Below, in pieces: positions 1-25,956 of a stretch of DNA of 28,003 nt. The stretch's first letter is position 1, and each line of letters starts with the position of its first letter. The position numbers and the translations under genes are program-made. A model generated the notes under the pieces. It was not told the origin of the DNA and searched no databases. It saw only the letters and a program-made list of their open reading frames with translations. Source of the DNA: a virus (taxonomy: Duplodnaviria; Heunggongvirae; Uroviricota; Caudoviricetes); the IMG/VR virus record IMGVR_UViG_3300029068_000004; one strand, given 5' to 3'.

Positions 1-536
1 TTTGTTGATGCCGTTCCTGCGCTGGAAGACGCTGACTGAGCCGACGACGCGGCCTGTCCGGCTGACGTGCTGGCTGCGCGTGCGGAGTCCGCAGCATCAG
101 TCGCATGGGTTGCCGCCTCACGGGCTGATGTGCGGGCATCACTGGCTGACTTCTTCGCGGCTGCCGTGTTCTGTGCCACTGCGGACGCGTTACGCGCCAC
201 CTCTTCCACCATCAGTTCAAAGCGGCGCAGTGCCTCCGGACGGACATCATCCTCCGTCATGGCACCGAGAAAATCATTCAGCGTACCCGGTTGTGAGTCT
301 TCATACACGGTGATGGTCCCGGCATGCGATGGCGGGAAGCCTTCCACCAACAGAATAACGCTGTACTGACCGTACTCAACGTCCATGCTGTAACGCCCGG
401 CTTCATCCGGGTTTTCTGAGGCCACTGTGTTCACCACCACCGTGGTGCTGTTGCGCCTGGCCTTTAGCTGAATGGTGCAGTTTTGTATCGGCTTACCTGC
501 GCCATCTTTCAGTACACCTGAAATCCGTACTGCCAT
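1..536 (-). CDS. stf: Side tail fiber protein Stf, N-terminal part (gene runs past the window start)
   Basis: Minus-strand ATG at 536-534 preceded by a GGGGGGAA Shine-Dalgarno. Manual translation MAVRISGVLKDGAGKPIQNCTIQLKARRNSTTVVVNTVASENPDEAGRYSMDVEYGQYSV... matches the lambda Stf N-terminus as I remember it. Open to the window edge, so absent from the ORF track. Position after lom matches lambda gene order. Confidence 0.75.
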   Translation of the reverse strand, partial: MAVRISGVLKDGAGKPIQNCTIQLKARRNSTTVVVNTVASENPDEAGRYSMDVEYGQYSVILLVEGFPPSHAGTITVYEDSQPGTLNDFLGAMTEDDVRPEALRRFELMVEEVARNASAVAQNTAAAKKSASDARTSAREAATHATDAADSARAASTSAGQAASSAQSASSSAGTAST

Positions 537-546
537 ATTCCCCCCA

Positions 547-574
547 CAAAAAAACCCGCCTGAACCGGCGGGCT
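547..574 (-). terminator. Rho-independent terminator-like hairpin downstream of lom
   Basis: Minus strand reads CCCGCC-GGUUCA-GGCGGG followed by a run of 7 U; sits between the lom stop (601) and the stf start (536). Confidence 0.55.
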
Positions 575-600
575 GTCATAACACTGTGTTACCTGGCTAA

Positions 601-1200
601 TCAGAATTTATAACCGACACCCACGATGAAACCGTCAGTGCGCCAGTCACCACTGCCGGAACCTTCATAAGCAATATCAATGGCCACGGATTCGGTCGGG
701 TTAAACTGCACGCCAGCCCCCCACGCCAGAGACGTGTTGCTGTGGCGACCGTCATCACTTCCGGTCAGCACATCGTGCGTTTTCCCCTTGTTGTCAGTTA
801 CGCGGAGATAATCCCCGGAGAAAGTCGACACACGGCTGTAAGCCACACCCGCCATCGCATACGCGCTGAACCATTCATTCACGCGTACAGACGGCCCCGC
901 CATCACGCTGAACCAGCGGTTACGCACGGAATCTTCATGCCAGCGGGTATCGCTGTAATGCGTTTTTTGCTCATCTTTGGCATTGGCATAACTGAATGAC
1001 GTCACCAGCCCCAGCGTGTCCGTAAATTCATAACGGTATTTCACGTTAATCCCGTTCAGATTATCGCTGCCGGGTACGTTCGTACGGGCATGAAGATACC
1101 CTGCGCTCAGTGTGGACTGGTGTTCAGACGCCCATGCAGGCGTACCTGATACGGCCAGACAGATGGCTGCGGACAAAATGGCGGCATAAACTTTACGCAT
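601..1200 (-). CDS. lom: Lom outer-membrane protein (Ail/Lom family), virulence-associated moron
   Basis: 199-aa ORF with a signal peptide (MRKVYAAILSAAICLAVSGTPAWA) and a C-terminal ...GFIVGVGYKF beta-barrel motif; near-identical to lambda Lom from memory; located directly after J as in lambda. Confidence 0.9.
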   Translation of the reverse strand: MRKVYAAILSAAICLAVSGTPAWASEHQSTLSAGYLHARTNVPGSDNLNGINVKYRYEFTDTLGLVTSFSYANAKDEQKTHYSDTRWHEDSVRNRWFSVMAGPSVRVNEWFSAYAMAGVAYSRVSTFSGDYLRVTDNKGKTHDVLTGSDDGRHSNTSLAWGAGVQFNPTESVAIDIAYEGSGSGDWRTDGFIVGVGYKF

Positions 1201-1222
1201 AATTACCTCTCGCTTTTCTGCA

Positions 1223-1249
1223 ATAAAAAAGGCGCCATTTCTGGCGCCC
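1223..1249 (-). terminator. Rho-independent terminator-like hairpin between J and lom
   Basis: Minus strand GGCGCC-AGAAAU-GGCGCC followed by UUUUUUAUU; a GAGAGG Shine-Dalgarno for lom follows. Confidence 0.6.
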
Positions 1250-1267
1250 GTATCTGGGTTATAAAAT

Positions 1268-4200
1268 TCAGCTAATCGTGATGCCTGCAGTGGCTTTCTT
1301 CATCACCACAACCAGCAAATCGCTGATACTTGCTGTGGGATACCAGTTATTTACCAGCCATGCTGACACCGAAAACTCCAGTGTCATGTGACCGTGACCG
1401 GCAGGCATATCAATAACACCACTGTAAATCAGCGTATTATCCAGCGCGGTACGGTTATAAATTTCAGCACCGTTTTTCCGTACTATCAGGCGGCATGACG
1501 AATAAATATCGTTATTCTCCCGCTCATGTTTAGCGCCGCTGAATGCCACCGCCGGAATAACAATCTGCCGGTCAAACGGCTGATCGTCATAAACCCTGAC
1601 GGTAATGGTCCCTGATGGCCACCGCTCCGGTGCCCGGGAGTCCCGTGGGAAAGCCTTACCCACTGTTTTGACAATATCGCCTTCAATCTGGTTGGCTGAC
1701 AGTTTCCCTTTAATCTGACAGTTCTCATTTATCGTAACGTTGTTGAGCGTCCCGGAGTTCGCATTCACACTGCCACTGATATCTGCATTTTTAGCGGTCA
1801 GCTTTCCGTCCGGTGTCAGGGAAAATGCCGGAGGATTACCGCCGCTGGTAATGGTCGGAGCCGTCAGGCGTTTCAGGAACACGTCGTTCATGAATATCTG
1901 ATCGCCCTGACCAACAAACATTGGTCTTGTGTTGCCATTAGACGGATCAATAAACGCGATACGGTTAGCGGCAACCAGAAACTGGCTCAGTTTGCCTTCC
2001 TCCGTGTCCTCCATGCTGAGGCCAATACCCGCGACATAATGTTTGCCGTCTTTGGTCTGCTCAATTTTGACGCCCCACATGGCATTCCACTTATCGTTGG
2101 CGTCCTTCCACTCTTTCGAAAACTGCTCCAGTTTGCTGGCGTTATCTTCCGTCAGCTCAAAGTTTTCCAGTAGCTCCTTGCCGAGATGCGTTTTATTGAT
2201 CAACCCTTTATAAAAATTCAGATAACCTTCCGCATCATCGCTCGCCCGACCGACGGCCTCCACAAATGCCGATTTACCAACGGTATTCACGCTGCGGATA
2301 TAAAAGTAATAATCATAACCCGGCTTAATATTGCTACTGGCAGCTATCCAGTACAGCGCCGTGCCAAGATAGCGGGCTGTGGTTTCAACCTGCCTGATAT
2401 CAGCAATCCGCTTTTCCGAGAACCAGAACTCAAACTGCACCGTCGGGTCATATACAGCCAGTTTCGGGACCGCTGTTATCTGAAAATACCCTGGTATCAG
2501 TTCAATAGTGACAGGCGCTGCAGGTGCGGCAATCCGGAACGATACCGATGCCGGATCGCCCTGCTGACCCCACGCATTTGCCGCCCGGACCGTCAGCGTG
2601 TAACGCCCCAGCGCCAGCTGCCTGAAGCGGTATGTGGTTTCCGTCGTCCGGACCGTGCTGACCAGCCGCTCACTGCCGTCATCCGCTGTTACGGTCAGAC
2701 GGAGCAGGAAGCTCACGCCCTTCACCACCTTCGGCGTGTCCCAGCGGGCCAGTACCTGATATTCCCCGCTGTCTGCGGTGACTTCGGCGGTCAGATGCTG
2801 CACTGCTGGCGGCGTGACACCATTCACCGTGCCGCTCTGGTCACCGTCAAAGTGCGCCCCGTTATCCACGATGGCCTCTTTCTCCGGCACATGCTGCACG
2901 GCAGTGATGGCATACGTGCCGTCGTCGTTCTCACGGATACTCACGCAGCGGAACAGGCGCTGGCGCAACGTCGGCAGCTTCAGTCCCCATACGCTGTATT
3001 CAGCAACACCGTCAGGAACACGGCTCACTTTTACCTTCACGCCGTCGGTGACGGACTGAACCTCCACGCTGACCGGATTGCCACTTCCGTCAACCAGGCT
3101 TATCAGCGTGGTACCGGAGGATGGCAGAGTGATTTCACGGTCGAGCGTCAGCGTCCGGGTCTGGCTGTTTACCGCCAGCACGCGCCCGCCGGTGCGGATA
3201 CCGGCATAGTCATCATCGCAGATTTCAATGACATCGCCCGGTACATGGCGAAGCCCTTCGGCACCCACGCTGAAGTCCACGGTCTGCGTTTCCAGCAGTT
3301 CTGTTTTAATCAGCCACAGCCCGGCGCGGTGTGCCTGCCCCCGGCTGGTACAGCCAAAAGCATCCATCTTCGTGACGTTACGACCGTAACGGGCAATGGC
3401 CTGTGTGTCCTCCACAAGCTCTGTCGCCGTCTCCCAGCCGTTATTCGGGTCAATCCAGTTCACCTCAACGGCATTATGGCGGTCCTTCAGGGCGCTGAAG
3501 CTGTAGCGGAACGGCGCACCATCATCCGGCATCACCACATTACTGCGGTTATAGGTCCACACCTTATCCGACGGTCGGTCCTGCACGAACGTCAGCGTCT
3601 GCCCGTTCCATACCGGCATACAGCGCATCGCCGAGCAGAAATCACTGAGCACATCCCACGCCTTGCGCTGTGTGGTCAGGTACGCATTACAGGTGATGCG
3701 CGGCTCCGTGCCGCCAAAACCGTCCGGCACCGACTGATCGCAATGCTGGCCGATGACATACAGCGCCCATTTGTCCACATCCGCCGCACCAAGACGTTTC
3801 CCCATGCCGTAGCGCGGATGGGTCAGCATATCCCACAGACACCAGGCCATGTTGTTGCTGTATGCTGGCTTAAACGTTCCGTCCCAGATACCGCTGTATT
3901 GCCGCGTCTGCGGGTTATAGTTCGACGGCACCTGCAGAATGCGCCCGCGCAGATGATAATTACGGCTCACCTGCTGGCTGCCGAACTGCTCCGAATCCAC
4001 CTGCACGCCGACCAGTGCCGTGTTCGGGTAGCCCTGTTTCACATCGATGATTTCGGTGTATGACGACCAGAGCGTTTTGTTCTGCAGCTGGTCTGTGGTG
4101 CTGTCCGGCGTCATCCTGCGCATCCGGATATTGAACGGGCGCGGCGGCAGGTTACCCACCACCACCGAGGCCAGATACTGCGAGGTGGTTTTGCCCTTAA

Positions 4201-4663
4201 TGGTGATGTCTTTTTCCGTCACCCAGCCACCATTACGCTGGATCTGAACCAGCAGGCGGACTTCCGACGGATTCCTGTCCCCCTTTGAGGTGGTTTCCAC
4301 CAGTGCCTGCACGCCGAAGGTAAAACGCAGTCGGTCAATGTTTGCCGACGTGATGGTCCGGGTGATCGGCGTGTCGTATTTCACTTCCGTACCCAGCACC
4401 GTCTCGGAGCCGGAGGATTCAAATCCCTCCGGCGGTGTCTGCTCCTGCTCACCGGCCCGGAACACCACCGTGACACCGGAGATGTTGGTATTCCCCTCAG
4501 TGTCCAGCACCGGCGTACTGTTCAGCAGCACACTTTTTAATCCGTCCACCGGACCTTCAATCGGCCCTTCACTGATGGCGTCTATCACGCTCAGCATCTG
4601 GGATGATTTCAGGTTGTCCTTCGCTTCGCGCGGGGTATGCCCCTTACTGCTGCCTTTACCCAT
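1268..4663 (-). CDS. J: Tail tip / host specificity protein J (central tail fiber)
   Basis: 1131-aa ORF; N-terminus [20 protein letters not shown]... and most of the length match lambda J (1132 aa) from memory; position between I and lom. Confidence 0.95.
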
Positions 4664-4723
4664 TCCTCACGCTCCATAAACGACAAAACCGCCCGGAGGC
4701 GGTTTCACATAAAACGTTTTGCA

Positions 4724-5365
4724 TCAACGACCAATCACCACAACCTGACCACCGTCCCCTTCGTCTGCCGTGCTGATCTCCTGAGATACCACCCGCGACC
4801 CCACACGCATTTCACCGTACAGAACGGGCAGGACATTGCCCTGGGCAACCATATTATCCAGTGAAGAAAAATAGGTGTTCTGTTTGCCGTTATCCGTTGT
4901 CTGTGTGTGGGGGGTTTTGGGTTTAGGGGCCAGCATCTGTGCAACACCGCCAAGCGTCATACTGGCACCGAGAGAAAACAGCAGATTACTCGCCATAATT
5001 CCTACCCCCGGCATCCATATAGCAACCGCCATAACAGCCGCCCCCAGCACAGCCTGGAACACACCGCCACTTTTGGCTCCTGCCAGACGCGGCACGATGT
5101 GGATCACAGCACCATTTGCCAGCGGTTCATTAAGACGGGCTGATAATTCCGTTTCACCTGTATCACGCCCGGCAATGCGTATCTGATACCAGCCGTCGCT
5201 CAGCTTCTGACGAAACGCCGGGATCTGCATGGCCAGCGCCCGGATGGCTTCGGCCCCCGTTTTCACACGCAGATCGATGCGGCGGCCAAATCGTTGTAAA
5301 TCCCCGTAAAGGCAGATGCGTGCCATGCCTGGTGACGCCAGAGGGAGTGTGTGCGTCGCTGCCAT
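4724..5365 (-). CDS. I: Tail tip assembly protein I (ubiquitin-like beta-grasp family)
   Basis: 213-aa ORF starting MAATHTLPLASPGMARICLYGDLQRFGRR, as lambda I from memory; ends about 60 nt upstream of J as in lambda. Confidence 0.9.
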   Translation of the reverse strand: MAATHTLPLASPGMARICLYGDLQRFGRRIDLRVKTGAEAIRALAMQIPAFRQKLSDGWYQIRIAGRDTGETELSARLNEPLANGAVIHIVPRLAGAKSGGVFQAVLGAAVMAVAIWMPGVGIMASNLLFSLGASMTLGGVAQMLAPKPKTPHTQTTDNGKQNTYFSSLDNMVAQGNVLPVLYGEMRVGSRVVSQEISTADEGDGGQVVVIGR

Positions 5366-5941
5366 TTGTCGGTATACCTCTCACGTTTGCTCAGTTGTTC
5401 AGGAATATGGTGCAGCAGCTCGCCGTCACCACAGTAAATGGCGGCATGATTCGGCACCGATGAACCAAAACAGCACAGCAGCACATCGCCCGGTTGTGCT
5501 GATGACAACGGCACCTGATACAGCCCTGTGGCCTCCAGATTATCCAGATAGAGATTCTGACCGTGACGCCACCAGTCATCCTCGCGATGAAAATCCGGCA
5601 TATCAATCCCCGCCAGATGGTAAGCATCCCGGAACAGCGTGTAACAGTCCGTCACCCCGTGCTCAAAGCGCCGCCCGGTGAGATACGGCACACAGCGGAA
5701 TTTATGAATCTCCCCACGGCAGACCACCGGGGTGGCTGTGGACCAGCGCCACAATCTCACCCTGCATCTCTGCCCGCAGCCAGTCCTCCGGCGACATCCG
5801 GAAATACGCCTCCGACTCACCGGAGATATTCACGCAGGGAAAATATCTTTCCCCTTCCGGCGTTCTCACCACGAAGCCGCACGACTCCGCTGGCGCACAT
5901 CGCCGGGCGTGCGCCAGAATCGCTGATTCTGTCTCTGTCAT
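5263..5941 (-). pseudogene. K: Tail tip assembly protein K (JAB/MPN + NlpC/P60) split across two reading frames, probable frameshift pseudogene
   Basis: The N-terminal part (5941-5702, 79 aa, MTETESAILAHARRCAPAESCGFVV...ALVHSHPGGLPW then stop) and the C-terminal part (frame of ORF 5263..5820, ...GEIHKFRCVP...NlpC/P60-like...) are both K-like but in different frames. The break falls inside the JAB motif HxHx7Sx2D, immediately after HSHPGGLPW. Confidence 0.7.
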
Positions 5942-18562: not shown

Positions 18563-19870
18563 TTAAATCCGAAGTGATGTGACTCTTCCGATCGGTTTGA
18601 CAATAGGGAATTGCTTAACGATGAAATAACCTCCGGCATCATTCGGGTGATCATTGCCAGATTTTTTATCAGGCTCCCCCTTCTCATCCCAGACCTGTTG
18701 CTCCAGAGATTCGGCATATAACGGGCAACGCTTCACATTAACTTTATAGCGACGCTCACCATTGGCATTGCAGAACATTGCATTCATTGAGTTAACGCGA
18801 TCTTTTACTGGCGGGTTCGAGCTGTTCACCACAACGTTAAAACCAGCCTGCTTAAGCTGGGCTATATCCGTCGTACTTGCGTTACTTGATTTTCTGGAAT
18901 CCCCGGAAGCATCTGGATAAATATAAATTTCCCTCACTTTCCGGTAATCATTCCCATCATACAGCCAGAAGCGTTCTTTAATGATGCGGATCATATCCGG
19001 CGTATCGTAGGCATTGATGATTTCAGTTACCGCACATGGAAGCCCCAAACGCAGCACATGGACGATTCCCGCCATCTTTCCAACGTTAAAATCCATCCCA
19101 ATATAAATCGGCTCCCCTGGCTGCTCCACTTCTTCGCAATTATTCAGTTTCCGGTCAAACTGATGGTAAACAGTACCACTTGTCAGGTTAGTAAACTGTC
19201 CTCGAAGATAGGCTTTAATCAGCTCTGGAGGGTATGATTCAAGAAGCGAAGGAATGTAATCTGCTGGCAGGTTCTTTTCATTATCGAAAGTAGATGCCTG
19301 CACCAGACCATACAGTGAGGCCAGCTCTGTTTTTTCACGCACGGCTTTAACAAACTGCTCGTAGACAAATTTGAATCCTTCCGGCGTGGTTGTAACGTCA
19401 ATACCGTTGCGAAGTCCATCAATCTTATAACGCATACGTGCAATTATCTTGCGCCACGCCGTTCTGGCTTTTTCCTTCGGCAAAATGTCCAGTTCATCCA
19501 CCAACGCATTACCAATTTTGAAACCGACGATCGTTTGTGGCTTCTCCATCGATCTGCAGATAGTGGTTCCCCGATACTGGCGTCCGTAATAAAAGTGAAC
19601 CTCTTTATTTCCCTCATTAATTTTTACGTTCAATCCCCAGTCAGCAGCAACTTCTTCCACTGTAGGGTAAAAAATATCGCGAATTTGGGGATACGTTGGC
19701 GCAAAATATCCCTGATTTATACCTGGATGCTCCCAAATCCCCTTGCATATGCCGCCACACCCAACCCATGTTTTGCCCGAGCCAAAACCAGCAATATAGG
19801 CTTTAAATTTATGGGGCATTGAAAGAAATCGCGCCTGAGGCACATTAAGCGTCGGAGAGATCATCTTCAT
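18563..19870 (-). CDS. Terminase large subunit
   Basis: Walker A P-loop AGFGSGKT near the N-terminus, acidic motifs, size about 435 aa; probable ATG at 19870 (the track start at 19873 is GTG). Confidence 0.9.
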   Translation of the reverse strand: MKMISPTLNVPQARFLSMPHKFKAYIAGFGSGKTWVGCGGICKGIWEHPGINQGYFAPTYPQIRDIFYPTVEEVAADWGLNVKINEGNKEVHFYYGRQYRGTTICRSMEKPQTIVGFKIGNALVDELDILPKEKARTAWRKIIARMRYKIDGLRNGIDVTTTPEGFKFVYEQFVKAVREKTELASLYGLVQASTFDNEKNLPADYIPSLLESYPPELIKAYLRGQFTNLTSGTVYHQFDRKLNNCEEVEQPGEPIYIGMDFNVGKMAGIVHVLRLGLPCAVTEIINAYDTPDMIRIIKERFWLYDGNDYRKVREIYIYPDASGDSRKSSNASTTDIAQLKQAGFNVVVNSSNPPVKDRVNSMNAMFCNANGERRYKVNVKRCPLYAESLEQQVWDEKGEPDKKSGNDHPNDAGGYFIVKQFPIVKPIGRVTSLRI

Positions 19871-20939
19871 CACTCCTTACTCTGGCATCAACCACATTAA
19901 TATTGATCGCCACAGGCTGGGGATGTTCATTATCCTCCACCGTTTCGATCTCTTTGCGCAGCTTCTGGTTTTCTATTCTGCGCCGTTCAATTTCCAGTTC
20001 CTGTAGCCGCTTATCTGCACATAATGCCCCGCCAGCAGAAAGCAAACGCAACAATTCACGCCGGGCGGCAGCCTTATCCTCCAGCAGGATCTCAACACCG
20101 TATTTTCCGAGCTTTGACCCTGCATATAATTGCCGCGCATCCCCATCAAGCAGTGTGGTATCAGCCATATAAAGCTGTCCCGTTCCCTCACCGCAGCACT
20201 TCGGGCAATCCGGATTGGGTATGGCGTTATCAACAAAGCCGAGGCCTCCATATTCCGGCTCGGATTTACCATCTCTGGAGGCCTGTGCCGCAGCCTTATC
20301 GAATTCTGCAATATCACGCCACTGGTAGAGATGATTCTCGCCCCAGCAATAACGGCAGTTAACACGGCGAAATTGTGCCAACTGATTGGGGTCGGCCTGG
20401 ACAATGGCCATCAACTGGCTCACCAGTAAATCCAGGTCTGCGGTATAGCGTTTCTGGTACTGATTGCGGAAGTAGCTGATAGCACGATAAACCCTGGCAT
20501 TTCTAAGCATACGACTGGCGTTGCTGTTAGCTGTCGCACCTTGCCCCTCATAACCGGCTAGTCGGTACGCCTCTGTCGGCTTTTTACCCTGAGCAACAAG
20601 CATCGCAAACTTAGCCTGCTGGTCAGAAATGCCGAATTCATCGGGACAGAACGAAAATTCCTCCGCGTCGCCCTCATTCAGGCCCGCATCGAATACTGGC
20701 TTTTTTTCCTGAGATTTTTCGTTCCGCTTTTGTGCAGTCTGCGCAGATTTTTTCTGCGCACTTTTTTGCGCAGTTTTGCGCATTTCTGTCTGCGCATTTT
20801 TCGGAGGTTTTTTGATGTAACGACGGGCTGTTGCGTAATTCAGTCCCCTTGCTTCACACCATGCCACCGGAGATATACCGGAGCGGGTGTATTCAGCAAT
20901 ATACTCCTGCTGCAACGCCCCCCAGTCCGGTCTGCTCAT
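19845..20939 (-). CDS. Terminase small subunit (Terminase_2-like core with N-terminal HTH and C-terminal Cys-rich region)
   Basis: Residues around ...AKFAMLVAQGKKPTEAYRLAGYEGQGATANSNASRMLRNARV... fit the small-terminase pattern from memory; N-terminal HTH-like segment; CRYCW...CPKCC cysteine cluster; directly upstream of the large terminase. Confidence 0.7.
   Translation of the reverse strand: MSRPDWGALQQEYIAEYTRSGISPVAWCEARGLNYATARRYIKKPPKNAQTEMRKTAQKSAQKKSAQTAQKRNEKSQEKKPVFDAGLNEGDAEEFSFCPDEFGISDQQAKFAMLVAQGKKPTEAYRLAGYEGQGATANSNASRMLRNARVYRAISYFRNQYQKRYTADLDLLVSQLMAIVQADPNQLAQFRRVNCRYCWGENHLYQWRDIAEFDKAAAQASRDGKSEPEYGGLGFVDNAIPNPDCPKCCGEGTGQLYMADTTLLDGDARQLYAGSKLGKYGVEILLEDKAAARRELLRLLSAGGALCADKRLQELEIERRRIENQKLRKEIETVEDNEHPQPVAININVVDARVRSDEDDLSDA
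20731..20796. repeat. Array of palindromic TGCGCA hexamers (5 perfect + 1 TGTGCA) with T/A tracts, inside the 5' part of the small terminase gene
   Basis: TGTGCA at 20731; TGCGCA at 20740, 20755, 20767, 20777 and 20791; spacing 10-15 bp. Encodes the low-complexity peptide ...KTAQKSAQKKSAQTAQK... Confidence 0.8.
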
Positions 20940-20942
20940 CAG

Positions 20943-21194
20943 TTAGTCCTGATTTTTATCCACCCTGAGTAGTTCGCGCAGAGCAAAGGCATCCCCTTTT
21001 CTGGCAAGCTTAAACAATGCCGCTCGTAACTCGGCTTCACCTTTCGCTCTGCCCTTACGGATGGCCGCATAAAAATCTGTCATTGCTTCCCGATTTTCTT
21101 TCAGTCGGTTCAGATCAACATCCAGAACGTCAGCGATTTGTTGTGCAGTCATCCGGCACGCTGCCAGAGACTCGACTTTCGAATACGGAATCAT
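20943..21194 (-). CDS. Small HTH DNA-binding protein (function unknown)
   Basis: 83-aa ORF with an HTH-like segment MTAQQIADVLDVDLNRLKEN; its stop lies 3 nt upstream of the small terminase ATG. Confidence 0.45.
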   Translation of the reverse strand: MIPYSKVESLAACRMTAQQIADVLDVDLNRLKENREAMTDFYAAIRKGRAKGEAELRAALFKLARKGDAFALRELLRVDKNQD

Positions 21195-22062
21195 TTGTCA
21201 CCCCTATTGATATGCAGGGTGTCTTCTTCCTGTATTTTTCGTGAAGGATTTTTACTGCAGCGTTGTTCCAGGTGACCTGATGGTGAATGCGTTTATGGCT
21301 GGCACCCATCAGTGAGATTTTTACGCACGACGGCGCATACATGACGGAGTAAAAACTTTTAACGTAGGTTCCGGAATCCAGATACAGCTCGGTCATTCCG
21401 CCGCTGTTTTTCTGCGTCTGTTTCTGCCCTAACTGGACAGCACCGATCGTCATAAACAATTCACCACAGCGACCGAGATTCGTGTACGTATTCACATCCT
21501 CGTTAATGCGCCCCATGAATGAGAACGGTCGATCAACCGAACAGATAAAGCTGTTCATTGCCTTGCGTTTCACCCACGAAGCATGGCCGCCATTGTCACC
21601 AAGAAAATCCCCTCCCTGCGACATAGCGATGGAAAGAGCAGGTATTGATTCGTAGTACGCCAGCATTTCAGAAAGGATCGCATCCAGTTTCCTTATCGGA
21701 AAATAGGCCTGGTCATAGTTGCGATCCACCCGAAACTGGAACTCGTGATAATCATCATCGAGCTGAATGAAGTATTTACACCCGACCAGTTTTGCCTGGT
21801 CGAAACAGGCATTACGGGCGTAAAAAATTGAGCGGCGGTCACAGAAATTATCGGCTTCGTCAAAACGACTGGCGATATCGGCTTTGGAAAACACCAGCAC
21901 CTGTTCACCAAATTCAGCCATGTACTGATGCCGTGTCTTATCTTCATCATCAACAACGATAAAAATTTTCCCGGTATAGCCAGCACGACGCAACGTCCGG
22001 TAAGTCAGAACTTTGTCCGGTCGCCCGTGAGTCAGAATAAAGGCGCAAAAATCATCACGCAT
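21130..22062 (-). CDS. Hypothetical enzyme with GT-A (family-2-like) glycosyltransferase sequence pattern
   Basis: 310-aa ORF with ATG at 22062. Sequence pattern CAFILTHGRP ... KIFIVVDDED ... YARNACFDQAKLVGCKYFIQLDDDY resembles the GT-A N-terminal strand plus ARN...G.Y...LD.DD (DXD) signature; no C-terminal transmembrane segment. Confidence 0.4.
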   Translation of the reverse strand: MRDDFCAFILTHGRPDKVLTYRTLRRAGYTGKIFIVVDDEDKTRHQYMAEFGEQVLVFSKADIASRFDEADNFCDRRSIFYARNACFDQAKLVGCKYFIQLDDDYHEFQFRVDRNYDQAYFPIRKLDAILSEMLAYYESIPALSIAMSQGGDFLGDNGGHASWVKRKAMNSFICSVDRPFSFMGRINEDVNTYTNLGRCGELFMTIGAVQLGQKQTQKNSGGMTELYLDSGTYVKSFYSVMYAPSCVKISLMGASHKRIHHQVTWNNAAVKILHEKYRKKTPCISIGVTNDSVFESRVSGSVPDDCTTNR

Positions 22063-22846
22063 ATTCCTCCTCCTCACCACCATGCATGATCTCCACCATG
22101 CGCTGCGTCATCCGGACAAATCCATTTTCAATAGCCTGCTGATAATCAATGATCACCAGCGCCGACTCCTCGAAAAAACACTGAATTTCAGCGGGGGCGT
22201 GAGCGTAATAGTCCGCAATTCTGCTGAAATTAAACACCGTGTGACGTTCTGCCGCACACAGGAGGAATTTCTCAATATCAGGCTCAAGGGACGCCGAACG
22301 TATCCGGCTGATCAGCTCCTGAGTTTTCGTATCGTCGTACAGTTCACTGATATCCGGTTTACCGCCCGACGGCTCATAAACAGGCGTATCAATTTTCGTC
22401 GTATACGGCTCCTCCTCATTTCCTGTACCGGGCAAAACATCCGTCAACAGTTCATCAATTTCTGTCGGGATGAAGCCTGTCAGGGAGACATCAAAATCAG
22501 CATTGATTAGGTCCGACAGCTCCATCCGCAACAGATCTTCATCCCAGCCAGCATTCATCGGCAGGCGATTATCTGCCAGGCGGTACGCCTTTTTCTGCTC
22601 ATCCGTCAGGCCAGACAGAACAATGACCGGAACAGAATCCATTTTGAGCATTTCAGCCGCCATAACACGACCGTGACCCGCAATAATTTCGCCCTTTTCG
22701 TCAATCAGCACCGGATTAGTCCAGCCGAATTGCTTAATACTTTCTACCAGTTGTGCCACCTGCTCAGGGCTGTGCGTCCTGGCGTTGTGCGCATACGGTG
22801 ACAATTCTTGTAATGGGCGATAGACTATCTTTAATTTCTCGCTCAT
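22055..22846 (-). CDS. ParB-like (ParB/Srx N-terminal domain) protein with a C-terminal domain of unknown function
   Basis: N-terminus ...LSPYAHNARTHSPEQVAQLVESIKQFGWTNPVLIDEKGEIIAGHGRVMAAEMLKMDSVPVIVL matches the ParB N-domain pattern including GHxR. Ends with the acidic tail GGEEEEYA, whose codons (GAGGAGGAGGAA) form the Shine-Dalgarno for the downstream gene. Confidence 0.7.
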   Translation of the reverse strand: MSEKLKIVYRPLQELSPYAHNARTHSPEQVAQLVESIKQFGWTNPVLIDEKGEIIAGHGRVMAAEMLKMDSVPVIVLSGLTDEQKKAYRLADNRLPMNAGWDEDLLRMELSDLINADFDVSLTGFIPTEIDELLTDVLPGTGNEEEPYTTKIDTPVYEPSGGKPDISELYDDTKTQELISRIRSASLEPDIEKFLLCAAERHTVFNFSRIADYYAHAPAEIQCFFEESALVIIDYQQAIENGFVRMTQRMVEIMHGGEEEEYA

Positions 22847-22983: not shown

Positions 22984-24441
22984 TTAGGAGCGCCAAAAAA
23001 AACCTGAAAACAATATAATAACAGGATAAATTTCAAGGCGACCAAGAATCATAGCTATGCACATTAAACATTTTGCAATGTCATTAAGCACTCCGAATGA
23101 CGATGCAGTAGCCCCAAAACCTAATCCCATATTATTAATACATGCAGCCACTGTTGCAAATGATGTAAGAAAATCATATCCCATACCATTTAACACCAGT
23201 ATAAAAAACACCGTGAAGAGAGTATAAAGAAAAAAGAAACTCCATACAGACCTCATTACACGATCTGTAACTATCTTCCCTCCTACATTTACACTCAACA
23301 ACGCTCTGGGATGAGAAAGCTGATTTATCTCGTGTTTGCTTTGTTTGAAAAGTATAAGAAATCGAAGTGACTTAATTCCACCACAAGTTGAACCTATACA
23401 TCCCCCAAAGAAACTTGACAACAGCAAAAACACTATCGTGTGCGTGGGCCAACTTGCATAATCCTGCGTAGCTAAACCATTATCAGTGAGCATGGAGCTG
23501 GCAAGAAAAAACGAATGAATAAAACTTCCATGCAAGTCATACATACCTATATGCCAGACCTGGAAAGAGGTAACAATGATCACCCCTAAGGCTATTAACA
23601 GAAAGAAACGAAGTTCAATATCTCTGATTAAAGGTTTTATCGTTTTCCTGCTAATAACAATATACCAAAGAGTGAAGTTGAAAGCCGATAGCAGGGAAAA
23701 AGAACCAGCCACCAGCTCAACCAAATAGTTATTAAAATATCCGATACTCTCGCTATGAGTTGAGAAACCACCAAGCGAAACTGTGGAAATCCCGTGACAA
23801 ATAGCATCAAACAAAGGCATTCCTGCAAGTCTATAACAGACAATACAAGCAATACCTAATAAAGAATAAGTTATCCACAGTGTCCGTGACGTATCGGCCA
23901 GGCGGGGAGTGAGTTTGTCATCCTTAAATGGCCCCGGCATTTCTGACTGATAAAGCTTTGCACCACCAATACCCAATAATGGCAATACAGCAACCGCCAG
24001 AACAATAACTCCTAAACCACCTATAAAATTTAACTGTGACCGATAGTACAAATATGCCCGAGGTAATGAACTAACATCATCAATTACAGTTGCTCCTGTT
24101 GTTGTTATTCCAGAAACCCCTTCAAACAGAGCATCAATGAACGTTAAATTAAGTTCTGAGTCAATCCATAAAGGGAATGCACTAATAACAGAAAACAAAA
24201 TCCAAAACATTACAATTATAATAAACCCATCACGGGTACGTAATTGAATGCCAGATTTCTTAGTTGTATACCACGCTCCGCCACCAATGCAAAAAAATAT
24301 AACGAAAGTTATAAAGAAAACAAACAGGCTTTTTTCTTTATAAAACAATGCTACAACCATTGGTGGCAACATTGAAAGACTATAGAGCCAAACCAGGAAC
24401 CCACACATATGAGTAACAACTCTTACATGAGATGTATTCAT
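22984..24441 (-). CDS. trkG: TrkH/TrkG-family potassium uptake protein (moron)
   Basis: Polytopic membrane protein; from ATG 24441 it reads MNTSHVRVVTHMCGFLVWLYSL..., as E. coli Rac-prophage TrkG (485 aa) from memory. A TTG at 24459 with an AAGGTGG Shine-Dalgarno is an alternative start. Visibly AT-rich versus neighbours. Confidence 0.9.
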   Translation of the reverse strand: MNTSHVRVVTHMCGFLVWLYSLSMLPPMVVALFYKEKSLFVFFITFVIFFCIGGGAWYTTKKSGIQLRTRDGFIIIVMFWILFSVISAFPLWIDSELNLTFIDALFEGVSGITTTGATVIDDVSSLPRAYLYYRSQLNFIGGLGVIVLAVAVLPLLGIGGAKLYQSEMPGPFKDDKLTPRLADTSRTLWITYSLLGIACIVCYRLAGMPLFDAICHGISTVSLGGFSTHSESIGYFNNYLVELVAGSFSLLSAFNFTLWYIVISRKTIKPLIRDIELRFFLLIALGVIIVTSFQVWHIGMYDLHGSFIHSFFLASSMLTDNGLATQDYASWPTHTIVFLLLSSFFGGCIGSTCGGIKSLRFLILFKQSKHEINQLSHPRALLSVNVGGKIVTDRVMRSVWSFFFLYTLFTVFFILVLNGMGYDFLTSFATVAACINNMGLGFGATASSFGVLNDIAKCLMCIAMILGRLEIYPVIILFSGFFWRS

Positions 24442-24578
24442 ATCTAAATATTCTTTCAATTATAACCACCTTGCTGCAATATTATGATTATACTGTATAA
24501 AATTTAACTCCTCTTAGATCTTACTTCACTGTTCCTTATGAAACAATCATCAAAATGAATCATATTGTAGTTAAGATT

Positions 24579-25043
24579 TTACTTTAAACACTGCTCGGTT
24601 ATGTATTGCTGAGCACCTTCAAGTTGGGCCTGCATCATTACCAGTCGTTCCCGGAGGGTGAAATAATCCCGTTCAGCGGTGTCTGCCAGTCGGGGGGAGG
24701 CTGCATTATCCACGCCGGAGGCGGTGGTGGCTTCACGCACTGACTGACAGACTGCTTTGATGTGCAACCGACGACGACCAGCGGCAACATCATCACGCAG
24801 AGCATCATTTTCAGCTTTCGCATCAGCTAACTCCTTCGTGTATTTTGCATCGAGCGCAGCAACATCACGCTGACGCATCTGCATGTCAGTAATTGCCGCG
24901 TTCGCCAGCTTCAGTTCTCTGGCATTTTTGTCGCGCTGTTCTTTGTAGGCGATGGCGTTATCACGGTAATGATTAACACCCCATGACAGGCAGACGACGA
25001 TGCAGATAACCAGAGCGGAGATAATCGCGGTTACTCTGCTCAT
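24579..25043 (-). CDS. Rz: Rz i-spanin
   Basis: 154 aa with an N-terminal transmembrane segment and coiled-coil body; lambda-Rz-like sequence; start overlaps the R stop (ATGA). Confidence 0.9.
24638..24823 (-). CDS. Rz1: Rz1 o-spanin lipoprotein, embedded in Rz in the +1 frame
   Basis: 61-aa [27 protein letters not shown]... with a lipobox (VVGC) and proline-rich segment; wholly inside Rz, as in lambda. Confidence 0.85.
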
Positions 25044-25516
25044 ACCTCAATCTCTCTGACCGTTCCGCCAGCTTCTTTGAATTTTGCAATCAGACTGTCA
25101 GCCTTATGCTCGAACTGACCATAACCAGCGCCCGGCAGTGAAGCCCATATATTGCTGCAACGGTCGATAGCCTGACGGATATCACCGCGATCAATCATCG
25201 GCAAAGCGCCACGCTCTTTAATCTGCTGCAGCGCTACAGCATCCTGACTTTCTGGAGAAAAATCTTTCAGGCCAAGTTGCTTGCGGTAGGCATCCCACCA
25301 GCGTGAAAGAAGCTGGTAACGTCCAGCGGCTGTTGATTTGAGTTTCGGATTTAGCGTGACAAGTTTGCGGGGGTGATCGGAGTAATCAGTGAACAGTTCG
25401 CCACCGACAATAACATCATAACCGTGATTTCTGGTTTTCTGCCGTCCGTTATCTGTTCCTTCTGACCATGCCACCATATCAAGGAAAGCTTTACGCTGGG
25501 AATTAAGTGTCTGCAT
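25040..25516 (-). CDS. R: Endolysin (lambda R-type lytic transglycosylase)
   Basis: 158 aa; sequence ...[33 protein letters not shown]... is near-identical to lambda R from memory. Confidence 0.95.
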
Positions 25517-25519
25517 TAA

Positions 25520-25861
25520 TTACTCCTTATGGGCACCGAACTTGTTACCGATGACCCTCATTGCCGCACCACGAATAGCATCAACACCAATCAGCCCCAC
25601 CCCACCACCAATGGCAACAGAAAGTGATTTAGGCCATCCGACATACTCAAGCGCGGATGCAAAGGTCAGCGTCAGAGCACCACAAAGCAGAATCTCAAGC
25701 GTTTTTCGTTTCCAGCCGCCGCCACCGCCAAAATAGGCAATGCGCAAACCAGCCATAATAATTGACATAACCACTGCACCCAGCGGCGTATCTCCACGCC
25801 ACCAACTTTGTAAGAGTTCCAGTAAGTCAGGCCAGGAATGAGGGGCATTGTGCATTTTCAT
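25520..25861 (-). CDS. Holin (three predicted transmembrane segments) with M-K-M dual-start motif
   Basis: Immediately upstream of the endolysin; ATG-AAA-ATG at 25861-25853 preceded by a GGAGGTG Shine-Dalgarno; three hydrophobic stretches; not lambda S in sequence. Confidence 0.65.
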   Translation of the reverse strand: MKMHNAPHSWPDLLELLQSWWRGDTPLGAVVMSIIMAGLRIAYFGGGGGWKRKTLEILLCGALTLTFASALEYVGWPKSLSVAIGGGVGLIGVDAIRGAAMRVIGNKFGAHKE

Positions 25862-25956
25862 AAGCCTCACCTCCGAGAGTTCGGATGGTGCTAAGTGTAA
25901 GATTCAGGCTCTCAGGCTTGCTAACAAGAAGTCGAGGATGTTTCCGGAGCCTAACA

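What the first reader, a model, noticed from the sequence alone, without database searches (positions are those of the whole stretch)
1268..1800. J C-terminal receptor-binding region differs from lambda J while the rest of J is near-identical
Most of J matches lambda J as I remember it, but the last roughly 150 residues (…[22 protein letters not shown]…[32 protein letters not shown]) do not match my memory of the lambda C-terminus, which is the LamB-binding domain. Swapping of the J C-terminal domain is the usual route to altered host receptor specificity, so this prophage probably targets a receptor other than LamB.
Basis: inference. Interest (0 to 1): 0.4.

Follow-up and report, generated by a model that had tools for sequence, protein, structure and literature searches.

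The report
Common OmpC-type lambda J tail tip
This prophage's tail-tip protein J is lambda-like except for its last ~145 residues, which are a very common, already characterised receptor-binding module that most likely recognises the porin OmpC instead of lambda's LamB; it is real but ordinary.

Summary
J (window 1268..4663, minus strand, 1131 aa) is 96-100% identical to lambda J up to about aa 650 and 80-96% up to aa 1000. It is only about 41% identical over the receptor-binding domain (RBD). Nucleotide homology to lambda stops at window 1707, which is J aa 986.

The diverged part is still a homologue of the lambda RBD. It matches Pfam PF12421 (Ig_GpJ_C), and its model is closest to solved gpJ RBD structures.

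It is not a new module. The RBD is 124/127 identical to that of prophage PPompW_132418. That C-terminus in turn matches the published engineered variant "gpJ 1A2" at every readable position. The 1A2 variant delivers DNA through OmpC, working on 20 of 23 alleles. It fails on K-12 OmpC and does not use LamB.

The next relative is "A8" (61% identical), which also uses OmpC and has been solved bound to it. The same RBD-coding DNA occurs in 3350 of 5426 complete E. coli genomes.

The one caveat is that three substitutions relative to 1A2 sit in a hypervariable loop that probably contacts the receptor. They may shift which OmpC alleles are recognised.

Novelty is nil and interest is low.

The parts
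1268..4663 (-). Complete J (tail tip / central tail fibre) gene, 1131 aa plus stop codon
   Evidence: ORF list. It is 89% identical to lambda J over its full length. Pfam domains run in lambda order: FNIII-A_GpJ, Phage-tail_3, Ig_J, Ig_J_second, Phage_Tail_Tip, Ig_GpJ_C.
1707..4663 (-). Lambda-like part of J (aa 1-986): hub domains, two FNIII domains, alpha-helical shaft, most of the central straight fibre
   Evidence: A continuous BLASTN alignment to lambda 14412-18461 at 90.9% ends at window 1707. Protein identity is 96-100% for aa 1-650 and 80-96% for aa 651-1000.
1664..1798 (-). End of the central straight fibre (aa 956-1000), immediately above the RBD. It is identical to the same stretch of gpJ A8 and differs from gpJ 1A2 at S965N, Q983R, I984V, K985L and I997L.
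   Evidence: phmmer alignment to PDB 9wca. Frameshift-tolerant alignment to the published 1A2 DNA.
1271..1663 (-). Receptor-binding domain (aa 1001-1131), an Ig-like beta-sandwich of the 1A2/PPompW sequence class
   Evidence: Pfam PF12421, 129 bits against a cut-off of 26.2. AF2 model with pLDDT 81-96 across the domain. Foldseek top hits are 9wcb, 9wca, 8xck and 8xcj. Identity from the FPR motif onward: 124/127 to PPompW_132418, 115/127 to PhiR40_1, 75/123 to A8, 52/127 to lambda.
1613..1654 (-). Inferred receptor-contact loop L1 (aa 1004-1017, [14 protein letters not shown])
   Evidence: It is a loop between strands in the AF2 model and is variable among homologues. A8 has a 4-aa deletion here. 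It contains the lambda position-1012 hot spot (PMC6646904). Its assignment as a receptor-facing 'bottom' loop is an inference.
1508..1525 (-). Inferred receptor-contact loop L2 (aa 1047-1052, ERENND). This is the most variable segment and holds all three RBD differences from 1A2/PPompW (R1048K, N1050H, N1051T).
   Evidence: Translation. Highest column entropy, 1.76 bits. More than 20 natural variants of this loop were seen. A8 has a 5-aa insertion here. It coincides with the lambda 1048-1049 indel hot spot.
1436..1444 (-). Inferred loop L3 (aa 1074-1076, LDN)
   Evidence: AF2 secondary structure. It lies next to the lambda 1077-1078 indel hot spot. Inference.
1319..1354 (-). Inferred loop L4 (aa 1104-1115, [12 protein letters not shown])
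   Evidence: AF2 secondary structure. The single 1-aa indel relative to lambda lies here. It contains the lambda position-1107 hot spot. Inference.
1230..1249 (-). Terminator-like hairpin followed by a T run, between J and lom
   Evidence: Consensus scan. A terminator is annotated at the same place in phage 434.
601..1200 (-). lom (Ail/Lom outer-membrane beta-barrel, 199 aa). Its 5' two-thirds also lack nucleotide homology to lambda.
   Evidence: Pfam PF06316, E 2e-125. It is 48% identical to lambda Lom but 93-100% identical to the Lom of 434, PhiR40_1, MINF_8D and TA8571. Lambda's lom is therefore the outlier, and the lom allele is not tied to the RBD class.
3..536 (-). N-terminal 178 codons of the side tail fibre gene stf, cut by the window edge. 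Its unseen C-terminus is a second host-range determinant.
   Evidence: Pfam PF08400, E 4e-74. It is 85% identical at the nucleotide level to lambda 19458-20185.

Best explanation
This is the tail-tip (central fibre) protein J of a Rac-family lambdoid prophage. It has a lambda-type body carrying the commonest E. coli allele class of the exchangeable C-terminal receptor-binding domain.

By analogy with solved lambda and A8 gpJ structures, three J chains form a beta-prism fibre that ends in three Ig-like RBDs. Four variable loops of each RBD insert into the extracellular mouth of a trimeric porin. Binding spreads the base of the RBD trimer, twists the fibre, refolds the helical shaft and opens the tail tip for DNA ejection.

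For this allele class the porin is most likely OmpC (non-K-12 alleles), not LamB.

Shown here: the gene is intact, its architecture is that of lambda J, the location of the breakpoint, homology of the tip to the gpJ RBD family, near-identity to the 1A2/PPompW tip, and its abundance. Taken from the literature: OmpC use by 1A2 and A8, and the conformational mechanism. Inferred: that this particular allele, with three loop substitutions, also uses OmpC, and which loops face the receptor.
For: 1. Architecture. The ORF is intact and has lambda's domain order.

2. Breakpoint. Nucleotide homology to lambda ends at J aa 986. This lies next to the aa-964 junction at which functional lambda/prophage gpJ chimeras were built (PMC11338833).

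3. Identity to 1A2.
- The published 1A2 C-terminal DNA was translated with tolerance for bases dropped during PDF text extraction. It matches PPompW_132418 J at 171/176 readable positions, and all 5 mismatches lie next to extraction errors.
- The window RBD is 124/127 identical to PPompW_132418. It has 8 reliable differences from 1A2 over aa 947-1131.

4. Receptor data for 1A2.
- Delivery was 76-99% GFP+ at the top MOI on 20 of 23 OmpC alleles expressed in MG1655 lacking lamB and ompC. It was at most 2% on G1 (K-12 OmpC), G2 and G40.
- Delivery was about 5% at MOI 50 on wild-type, LamB-positive MG1655, against 98% for lambda gpJ.
- 1A2 particles are used against O157 through OmpC.

5. The next relative also uses OmpC. 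A8 is 61% identical in the RBD and identical over aa 956-1001. It has been solved bound to EDL933 OmpC (PDB 9wcb).

6. Fold. The AF2 model (pLDDT 81-96 in the RBD) has as its best PDB matches 9wcb, 9wca, 8xck and 8xcj, with E 1e-17 to 1e-19 and TM about 0.7.

7. Mechanism. It is taken from the lambda gpJ-LamB cryo-EM work (PMC11101478).
Against: No experiment was done on this exact allele.

Three of the six residues of inferred loop L2 differ from 1A2 (R1048K, N1050H, N1051T). This is the most variable and probably receptor-contacting segment, and it has more than 20 natural variants. Allele range, or conceivably porin choice, could therefore differ.

The fibre segment just above the RBD (aa 965-997) is of the A8 type, not the 1A2 type. 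In lambda and phi21, changes in this region alter receptor breadth.

The 1A2 sequence was read from a machine-extracted PDF with dropped bases, so 9 positions could not be read.

In the held text of the source data for Extended Data Fig. 2, panel C (OmpC-EDL933), the 1A2 and A8 rows repeat panel B. I therefore relied on the main text and on two other source files, which agree with each other (G17, and file 16).

The host's own ompC allele is not in the window. Whether the prophage is inducible is unknown.
Confidence: 0.8

Rival explanations
1. The tip binds a different outer-membrane protein from OmpC (for example OmpF, PhoE, OmpN or another trimeric porin), because its hypervariable loop L2 and the fibre segment above the RBD differ from 1A2.
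For: All three RBD differences from 1A2 fall in the most variable loop. In lambda and phi21, one to four substitutions in J can add OmpF or OmpC use.
Against: The RBD is 97.6% identical to an OmpC user. The next clade out (A8, 61% identical) also uses OmpC, so OmpC use brackets this allele. Laboratory receptor shifts usually add a receptor rather than replace one.
Confidence: 0.1
2. Despite the divergence, the tip still uses LamB as lambda does.
For: The domain is homologous to the lambda RBD (E about 1e-46 to PDB 8xcj/8iyk). Phage 21 and HK97 are other lambdoid phages that use LamB (phage 21; HK97: my own recollection).
Against: The RBD is only 41% identical to lambda's, and the inferred contact loops L1-L4 are unalike. 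The near-identical 1A2 tip gave about 5% delivery at MOI 50 on LamB-positive K-12, against 98% for lambda gpJ. It works in a lamB deletion background once a suitable OmpC is supplied.
Confidence: 0.03
3. The gene is a relic. The prophage is defective, and J no longer mediates any adsorption, so the divergence has no present function.
For: Rac-family prophages are often cryptic. This RBD class also occurs in obvious remnants, such as the terminase::J fusion ORF in TA8571 and frameshifted copies among the homologues.
Against: J is a full-length open frame. The whole late region in the window (terminase, portal, capsid, tail, lysis genes) consists of uninterrupted ORFs matching an annotated intact prophage at 98.9%. 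Variation in the RBD is concentrated in loops while the core is conserved, which is the pattern expected under selection for function.
Confidence: 0.07

Closest known systems
gpJ '1A2' (Brodel et al., Nature 2024, PMC11338833), equivalent to the J C-terminus of E. coli O145:H28 prophage PPompW_132418 (LC567822)
   Same: Same RBD sequence class, 124/127 identical from the FPR motif to the end. The lambda-type body is joined to this tip at essentially the same place (aa 964 versus aa 986). The Pfam family and fold are the same.
   Different: Three substitutions in inferred loop L2 (R1048K, N1050H, N1051T) and five in the fibre just above the RBD (S965N, Q983R, I984V, K985L, I997L). This allele is natural and untested.
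gpJ 'A8' (PDB 9wca closed state; 9wcb open state bound to OmpC G17 of EDL933)
   Same: Identical over aa 956-1001. Same fold, and it is the best structural match (Foldseek E 3e-19). It is an OmpC user.
   Different: The RBD proper is only 61% identical, with a 4-aa deletion in L1 and a 5-aa insertion in L2. A8 also accepts K-12 OmpC, which 1A2 does not.
Bacteriophage lambda J (P03749; PDB 8xcj/8xck/8iyk), LamB-binding
   Same: Aa 1-986 are 80-100% identical. Domain order is identical, the RBD fold is homologous, and presumably the trigger mechanism is the same.
   Different: The RBD is 41% identical, the contact loops are unalike, and the receptor is LamB rather than OmpC. Lambda's lom is also a divergent allele (48%).
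Phage 434 J (OmpC-binding; lambda h434 hybrids)
   Same: A lambda-type J with an alternative C-terminal RBD that redirects the phage to OmpC. Its Lom is 93.5% identical to the window's.
   Different: Its RBD is only 43% identical and longer, so it is a separate lineage. OmpC use is found in at least three RBD lineages.
J 'specificity region' module (residues 960-1132) of Maddamsetti et al. 2018 (PMC6646904)
   Same: Same boundaries, the same four variable or indel hot spots, and the same pattern of recombination independent of the rest of J.
   Different: That paper described the general phenomenon across 1207 homologues and assigned no receptors to clades.

Membership tests
gpJ C-terminal receptor-binding domain (Pfam PF12421, Ig_GpJ_C) | Profile match above the curated gathering score | tested here: met
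   Aa 1001-1131 score 129.2 bits against a cut-off of 26.2, E 1.4e-37, covering profile positions 1-135 of 135.
gpJ C-terminal receptor-binding domain (Pfam PF12421, Ig_GpJ_C) | Sits at the extreme C-terminus of a full-length J with hub, FNIII, helical shaft and beta-prism fibre upstream | tested here: met
   The Pfam domain order is that of lambda J. Aa 1-986 align to lambda J without rearrangement.
gpJ C-terminal receptor-binding domain (Pfam PF12421, Ig_GpJ_C) | Ig-like beta-sandwich fold superposable on solved gpJ RBDs | tested here: met
   The AF2 model has pLDDT 81-96 over the domain. Foldseek gives 9wcb E 2.9e-19, 9wca 5.3e-19, 8xck 6.1e-18 and 8xcj 7.3e-17, with TM 0.69-0.71. The model is of a monomer only.
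gpJ C-terminal receptor-binding domain (Pfam PF12421, Ig_GpJ_C) | Forms a trimer whose four bottom loops per chain engage a trimeric porin | not testable with these tools
   No multimer or complex modelling was available. Loop assignment L1-L4 is inferred from strand alternation, variability and published hot spots.
OmpC-using gpJ tip of the 1A2/PPompW class | Near-identity of the RBD sequence to the experimentally tested 1A2 tip | tested here: met
   124/127 identical to PPompW_132418, whose C-terminus equals 1A2 at all reliably readable positions.
OmpC-using gpJ tip of the 1A2/PPompW class | Same residues in the receptor-facing loops | tested here: inconclusive
   L1, L3 and L4 are identical. 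L2 differs at 3 of 6 residues (ERENND versus EKEHTD). The effect is unknown, and L2 has more than 20 natural variants within the class.
OmpC-using gpJ tip of the 1A2/PPompW class | Infection or DNA delivery depends on OmpC and not on LamB | not testable with these tools
   Shown for 1A2 only (PMC11338833). It needs an adsorption or delivery assay with this allele.
LamB-using lambda-type tip | High identity to lambda J 987-1132, including the LamB-contacting loops | tested here: not met
   52/127 (41%) identical. L1, L2 and L4 are unalike, with a 1-aa indel in L4. There is no nucleotide-level homology.

The most novel reading that the evidence does not exclude
The three substitutions in loop L2 (ERENND here, EKEHTD in 1A2) are not neutral. 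They would retune which OmpC alleles are accepted, for example restoring use of the K-12-type alleles G1, G2 or G40 that 1A2 cannot use. That would make L2 a small, swappable determinant of OmpC-allele specificity within the commonest E. coli J tip class.
Probability: 0.25. Interest if true: 0.3.

Novelty: already known. Interest (0 to 1): 0.1.

Why it matters
It matters little beyond annotation. The result lets this prophage's tail tip be labelled 'J, OmpC-type (1A2 class) receptor-binding domain' rather than simply 'lambda J-like', and it predicts that the phage would not need LamB.

More generally, it illustrates that the tip module most often joined to lambda-like J bodies in E. coli is the OmpC-type one. 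Lambda's LamB tip is the minority form. The hypervariable L2 loop within this class is a plausible target for studying or engineering OmpC-allele specificity, but that idea follows from published work rather than from this window.

Tried and rejected
1. Receptor data for natural phages with this tip. I looked for vB_EcoS-640R1, the PPompW prophages, the Stx2a 'JNE' phages, JLK-2012 and PhiR40_1. The papers held describe genomes or defence phenotypes, not receptors. The paper describing the PhiR collection (Brenes and Laub 2025) is not held.

2. A large receptor-prediction preprint. It deals with Drexlerviridae GpJ, not lambda-type tips.

3. A publication for PDB 9wca/9wcb. None is in the library, so only the entry titles are used.

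4. Residue ranges of loops L1-L4 in the lambda-LamB and Ur-lambda papers. They are not given in the text. The loops were therefore inferred.

5. An exact-sequence look-up of this J. It is not on record, so the source genome and its ompC allele could not be examined.

6. The idea that the J tip and lom are exchanged together as one cassette. I considered it because both lack nucleotide homology to lambda. I rejected it because lom is 93-100% identical in phages with quite different tips, including 434, and lambda's lom is simply the odd one.

7. Short ORFs on other frames or the other strand inside the interval (1486..1728 minus, 1740..1901 plus). They are mechanical ORFs inside a well-supported gene, and nothing supports them.

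Full report
**What is there**

The interval lies at the 3' end of a 3396-nt ORF on the minus strand (1268..4663) that encodes a 1131-aa protein. Pfam finds the full set of lambda J domains in lambda order: FNIII-A_GpJ, Phage-tail_3, Ig_J, Ig_J_second, Phage_Tail_Tip and Ig_GpJ_C.

Downstream on the same strand are four features:
- a terminator-like hairpin at 1249-1230;
- an Ail/Lom gene at 601..1200;
- a second hairpin at 574-553;
- the first 178 codons of a side tail fibre gene at 536..3.

This is the lambda order J-lom-stf.

The rest of the window is the late region of a Rac-family prophage. It has a lambda-like tail, a P22-like capsid, a lysis cassette and an embedded trkG. It is 98.9% identical over 25 kb to prophages in several complete E. 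coli genomes.

**Check of the observation**

BLASTP against lambda J gives 1001/1131 identities with one gap. In 50-residue windows the identity is as follows:
- aa 1-650: 96-100%
- aa 651-1000: 80-96%
- aa 1001-1050: 48%
- aa 1051-1100: 40%
- the last ~30 residues: 30%

DNA identity drops from about 95% to about 57% around J nucleotide 2900-2950. BLASTN homology to lambda ends at window 1707 (lambda 18461, J residue 986) and resumes only at window 728, inside lom.

The diverged block is aa 987-1131, window 1271-1706. The middle of J (aa 650-860) is also somewhat diverged, at 80-90%.

**What the diverged part is**

It is still a homologue of the lambda receptor-binding domain (RBD):
- Pfam PF12421 ('Tip attachment protein J, C-terminal receptor binding domain') matches aa 1001-1131 at 129 bits against a cut-off of 26.
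- A sequence search of the PDB finds 'A8 gpJ 713' (9wca/9wcb, E 2.7e-69) and lambda J (8xcj/8xck/8iyk, E about 1e-46).
- An AlphaFold2 model built with 30 natural homologues has pLDDT 81-96 across the domain.
- Its best Foldseek matches in the PDB are 9wcb, 9wca, 8xck and 8xcj, with E 3e-19 to 7e-17 and TM about 0.7. Entry 9wcb is the open state of A8 gpJ with OmpC G17 from E. coli EDL933. Entries 8xck and 8xcj are lambda gpJ closed and LamB-bound.

**Which receptor**

Brodel et al. (Nature 2024, PMC11338833) built lambda gpJ chimeras by fusing natural prophage C-termini at lambda J residue 964. They characterised two of them, A8 and 1A2, in MG1655 lacking lamB and ompC and carrying plasmid-borne ompC alleles.

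The supplement prints the 1A2 DNA. The held copy is a machine-read PDF with dropped bases, and the DNA appears recoded (68% identical to the window at the nucleotide level). I therefore aligned it to protein with a frameshift-tolerant dynamic programme.
- Against the window J (aa 947-1131) the reliable differences are S965N, Q983R, I984V, K985L, I997L, R1048K, N1050H and N1051T. Nine positions are unreadable.
- Against the J C-terminus of the O145:H28 prophage PPompW_132418 it matches at 171/176 readable positions. All five mismatches lie next to extraction errors.
- The window RBD, from the FPR motif to the end, is 124/127 identical to PPompW_132418, 115/127 to PhiR40_1, 75/123 to A8, 52/127 to lambda and 54/126 to phage 434.

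The window tip therefore belongs to the 1A2/PPompW class.

The functional data for 1A2 are these:
- Delivery was 76-99% GFP-positive cells at the highest MOI on 20 of 23 OmpC alleles. It was at most 2% on G1 (K-12 OmpC), G2 and G40.
- Delivery was about 5% at MOI 50 on wild-type, LamB-positive MG1655, where lambda gpJ gives 98%.
- 1A2 particles are used to target O157 strains through OmpC.

One discrepancy needs stating. In the held text of the source data for Extended Data Fig. 2, the panel C rows for 1A2 and A8 repeat panel B. I relied on the main text and on two independent source files that agree with each other (G17; file 16).

The 1A2 tip is nearly identical to this one, and the more distant A8 tip also uses OmpC. 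OmpC is therefore the best-supported receptor for this allele, and LamB use is very unlikely.

**How it most likely works**

The mechanism is taken from the lambda gpJ-LamB structures (PMC11101478). The existence of closed and OmpC-bound open states of A8 suggests it carries over to OmpC binders. The steps are:
- Three J chains form the beta-prism central fibre, ending in a trimer of Ig-like RBDs.
- Four bottom loops (L1-L4) of each RBD insert into the extracellular side of the porin trimer.
- Binding widens the base and narrows the top of the RBD trimer.
- New hydrogen bonds compact and twist the fibre.
- The helical shaft flips and partly refolds into strands, the FNIII domains separate, and the tail tip opens.

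In the model of this protein the inter-strand loops are aa 1004-1017, 1047-1052, 1074-1076 and 1104-1115. They coincide with the indel and variability hot spots that Maddamsetti et al. found in 1207 natural J homologues, at residues 1012, 1048-49, 1077-78 and 1107. The alternate loops (DQPFD, NG, PAGH) are conserved across classes. Calling the four variable loops L1-L4 is an inference from this pattern, not a structural measurement.

**Caveat and mosaic structure**

All three RBD differences from 1A2 lie in inferred loop L2. This is the most variable segment among homologues (1.76 bits mean entropy). More than 20 natural versions occur within this class, including ERENND (this window and others), EREHTD, EKEHTD and EQDHTD. 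This looks like fine tuning to polymorphic OmpC loops, and it may change which alleles are accepted.

The stretch just above the RBD (aa 956-1001) is identical to A8 rather than to 1A2. This fits a recombination breakpoint near position 49 of the specificity region, which Maddamsetti et al. reported as putative.

Compared with the otherwise 99.5%-identical prophage of strain MINF_8D, the whole segment window 1-5726 (K/I, J, lom, stf) is only about 92% identical. The J of that strain is 28 residues longer. Exchange therefore operates at several nested scales.

**How common it is**

The 433 nt that encode the RBD (window 1268-1700) are present at 90% identity or more, with full coverage, in 3350 of 5426 complete E. 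coli genomes. The median is two copies per genome and the maximum is 11. In the phage collection the class occurs in Stx1/Stx2-converting phages, the PPompW prophages, JLK-2012 and others.

In the large protein database all close relatives are from E. coli, E. albertii or Shigella. An RBD-coding copy 100% identical at the DNA level sits in a deletion remnant in strain TA8571. The full-length J sequence itself is not on record, but that only reflects minor allelic shuffling.

**Verdict**

It can be sharpened: the tip is an OmpC-type (1A2-class) module on a lambda-type J.

This is an already known, experimentally characterised and extremely common module. The general phenomenon of exchange of J residues 960-1132 is published. 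Interest is low.

The only open point is whether the L2 variant changes OmpC-allele range. That needs the chimera assay described under next steps.

Noticed in passing
window 21130..22083 (-) and 22055..22846 (-): The first ORF (317 aa) matches Pfam PF20691, TET-associated glycosyltransferase (E 1.5e-34). It overlaps the end of an intact 263-aa ParB_N-domain protein resembling ynaK, which is a truncated pseudogene in strain MINF_8D. No TET/JBP dioxygenase was seen in the window. The pair lies between the small terminase gene and trkG and could be DNA-modification or defence cargo.
   Followed up: no
window 22984..24459 (-): A full-length trkG potassium transporter gene (491 aa, PF02386) lies inside the prophage, between the lysis cassette (holin 25520..25870, endolysin 25040..25516, Rz 24579..25043) and the head genes. 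Together with ydaY it marks the element as a complete relative of the K-12 Rac remnant.
   Followed up: partly
window 1..5726 versus 5714 onward: Against the closest complete-genome prophage (strain MINF_8D), identity is 99.5% to the right of about 5720 but only about 92% across the K/I-J-lom-stf segment. That strain's J is 28 aa longer. There is therefore a second, larger recombination boundary near 5720.
   Followed up: partly
window 601..1200 (-), lom: Lom here is only 48% identical to lambda Lom but 93-100% identical to the Lom of phage 434, PhiR40_1, MINF_8D and TA8571. Lambda carries the unusual lom allele, not this prophage.
   Followed up: yes
window 1892..1894 (-), J residue F924: The phenylalanine at lambda J position 924 is conserved here (alignment). 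Its change to serine lets lambda escape the Gifsy-1 HepS abortive-infection nuclease, and the Gifsy prophages replace it with isoleucine (PMC13043305). This J would be predicted to trigger HepS.
   Followed up: no
L003 6001..8343 (E. coli TA8571): An ORF annotated 'terminase gpA endonuclease subunit' ends with a J C-terminus whose RBD-coding DNA is 100% identical to the window's. It is apparently a deletion that fused terminase to the end of J in a decayed prophage.
   Followed up: partly
window 10681..11142 (-): By position, the gene annotated ydaY in related genomes (a pseudogene in K-12 Rac) corresponds to an intact 153-aa ORF just upstream of the tape-measure gene. That is where lambda has the G/GT tail chaperone.
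   Followed up: no
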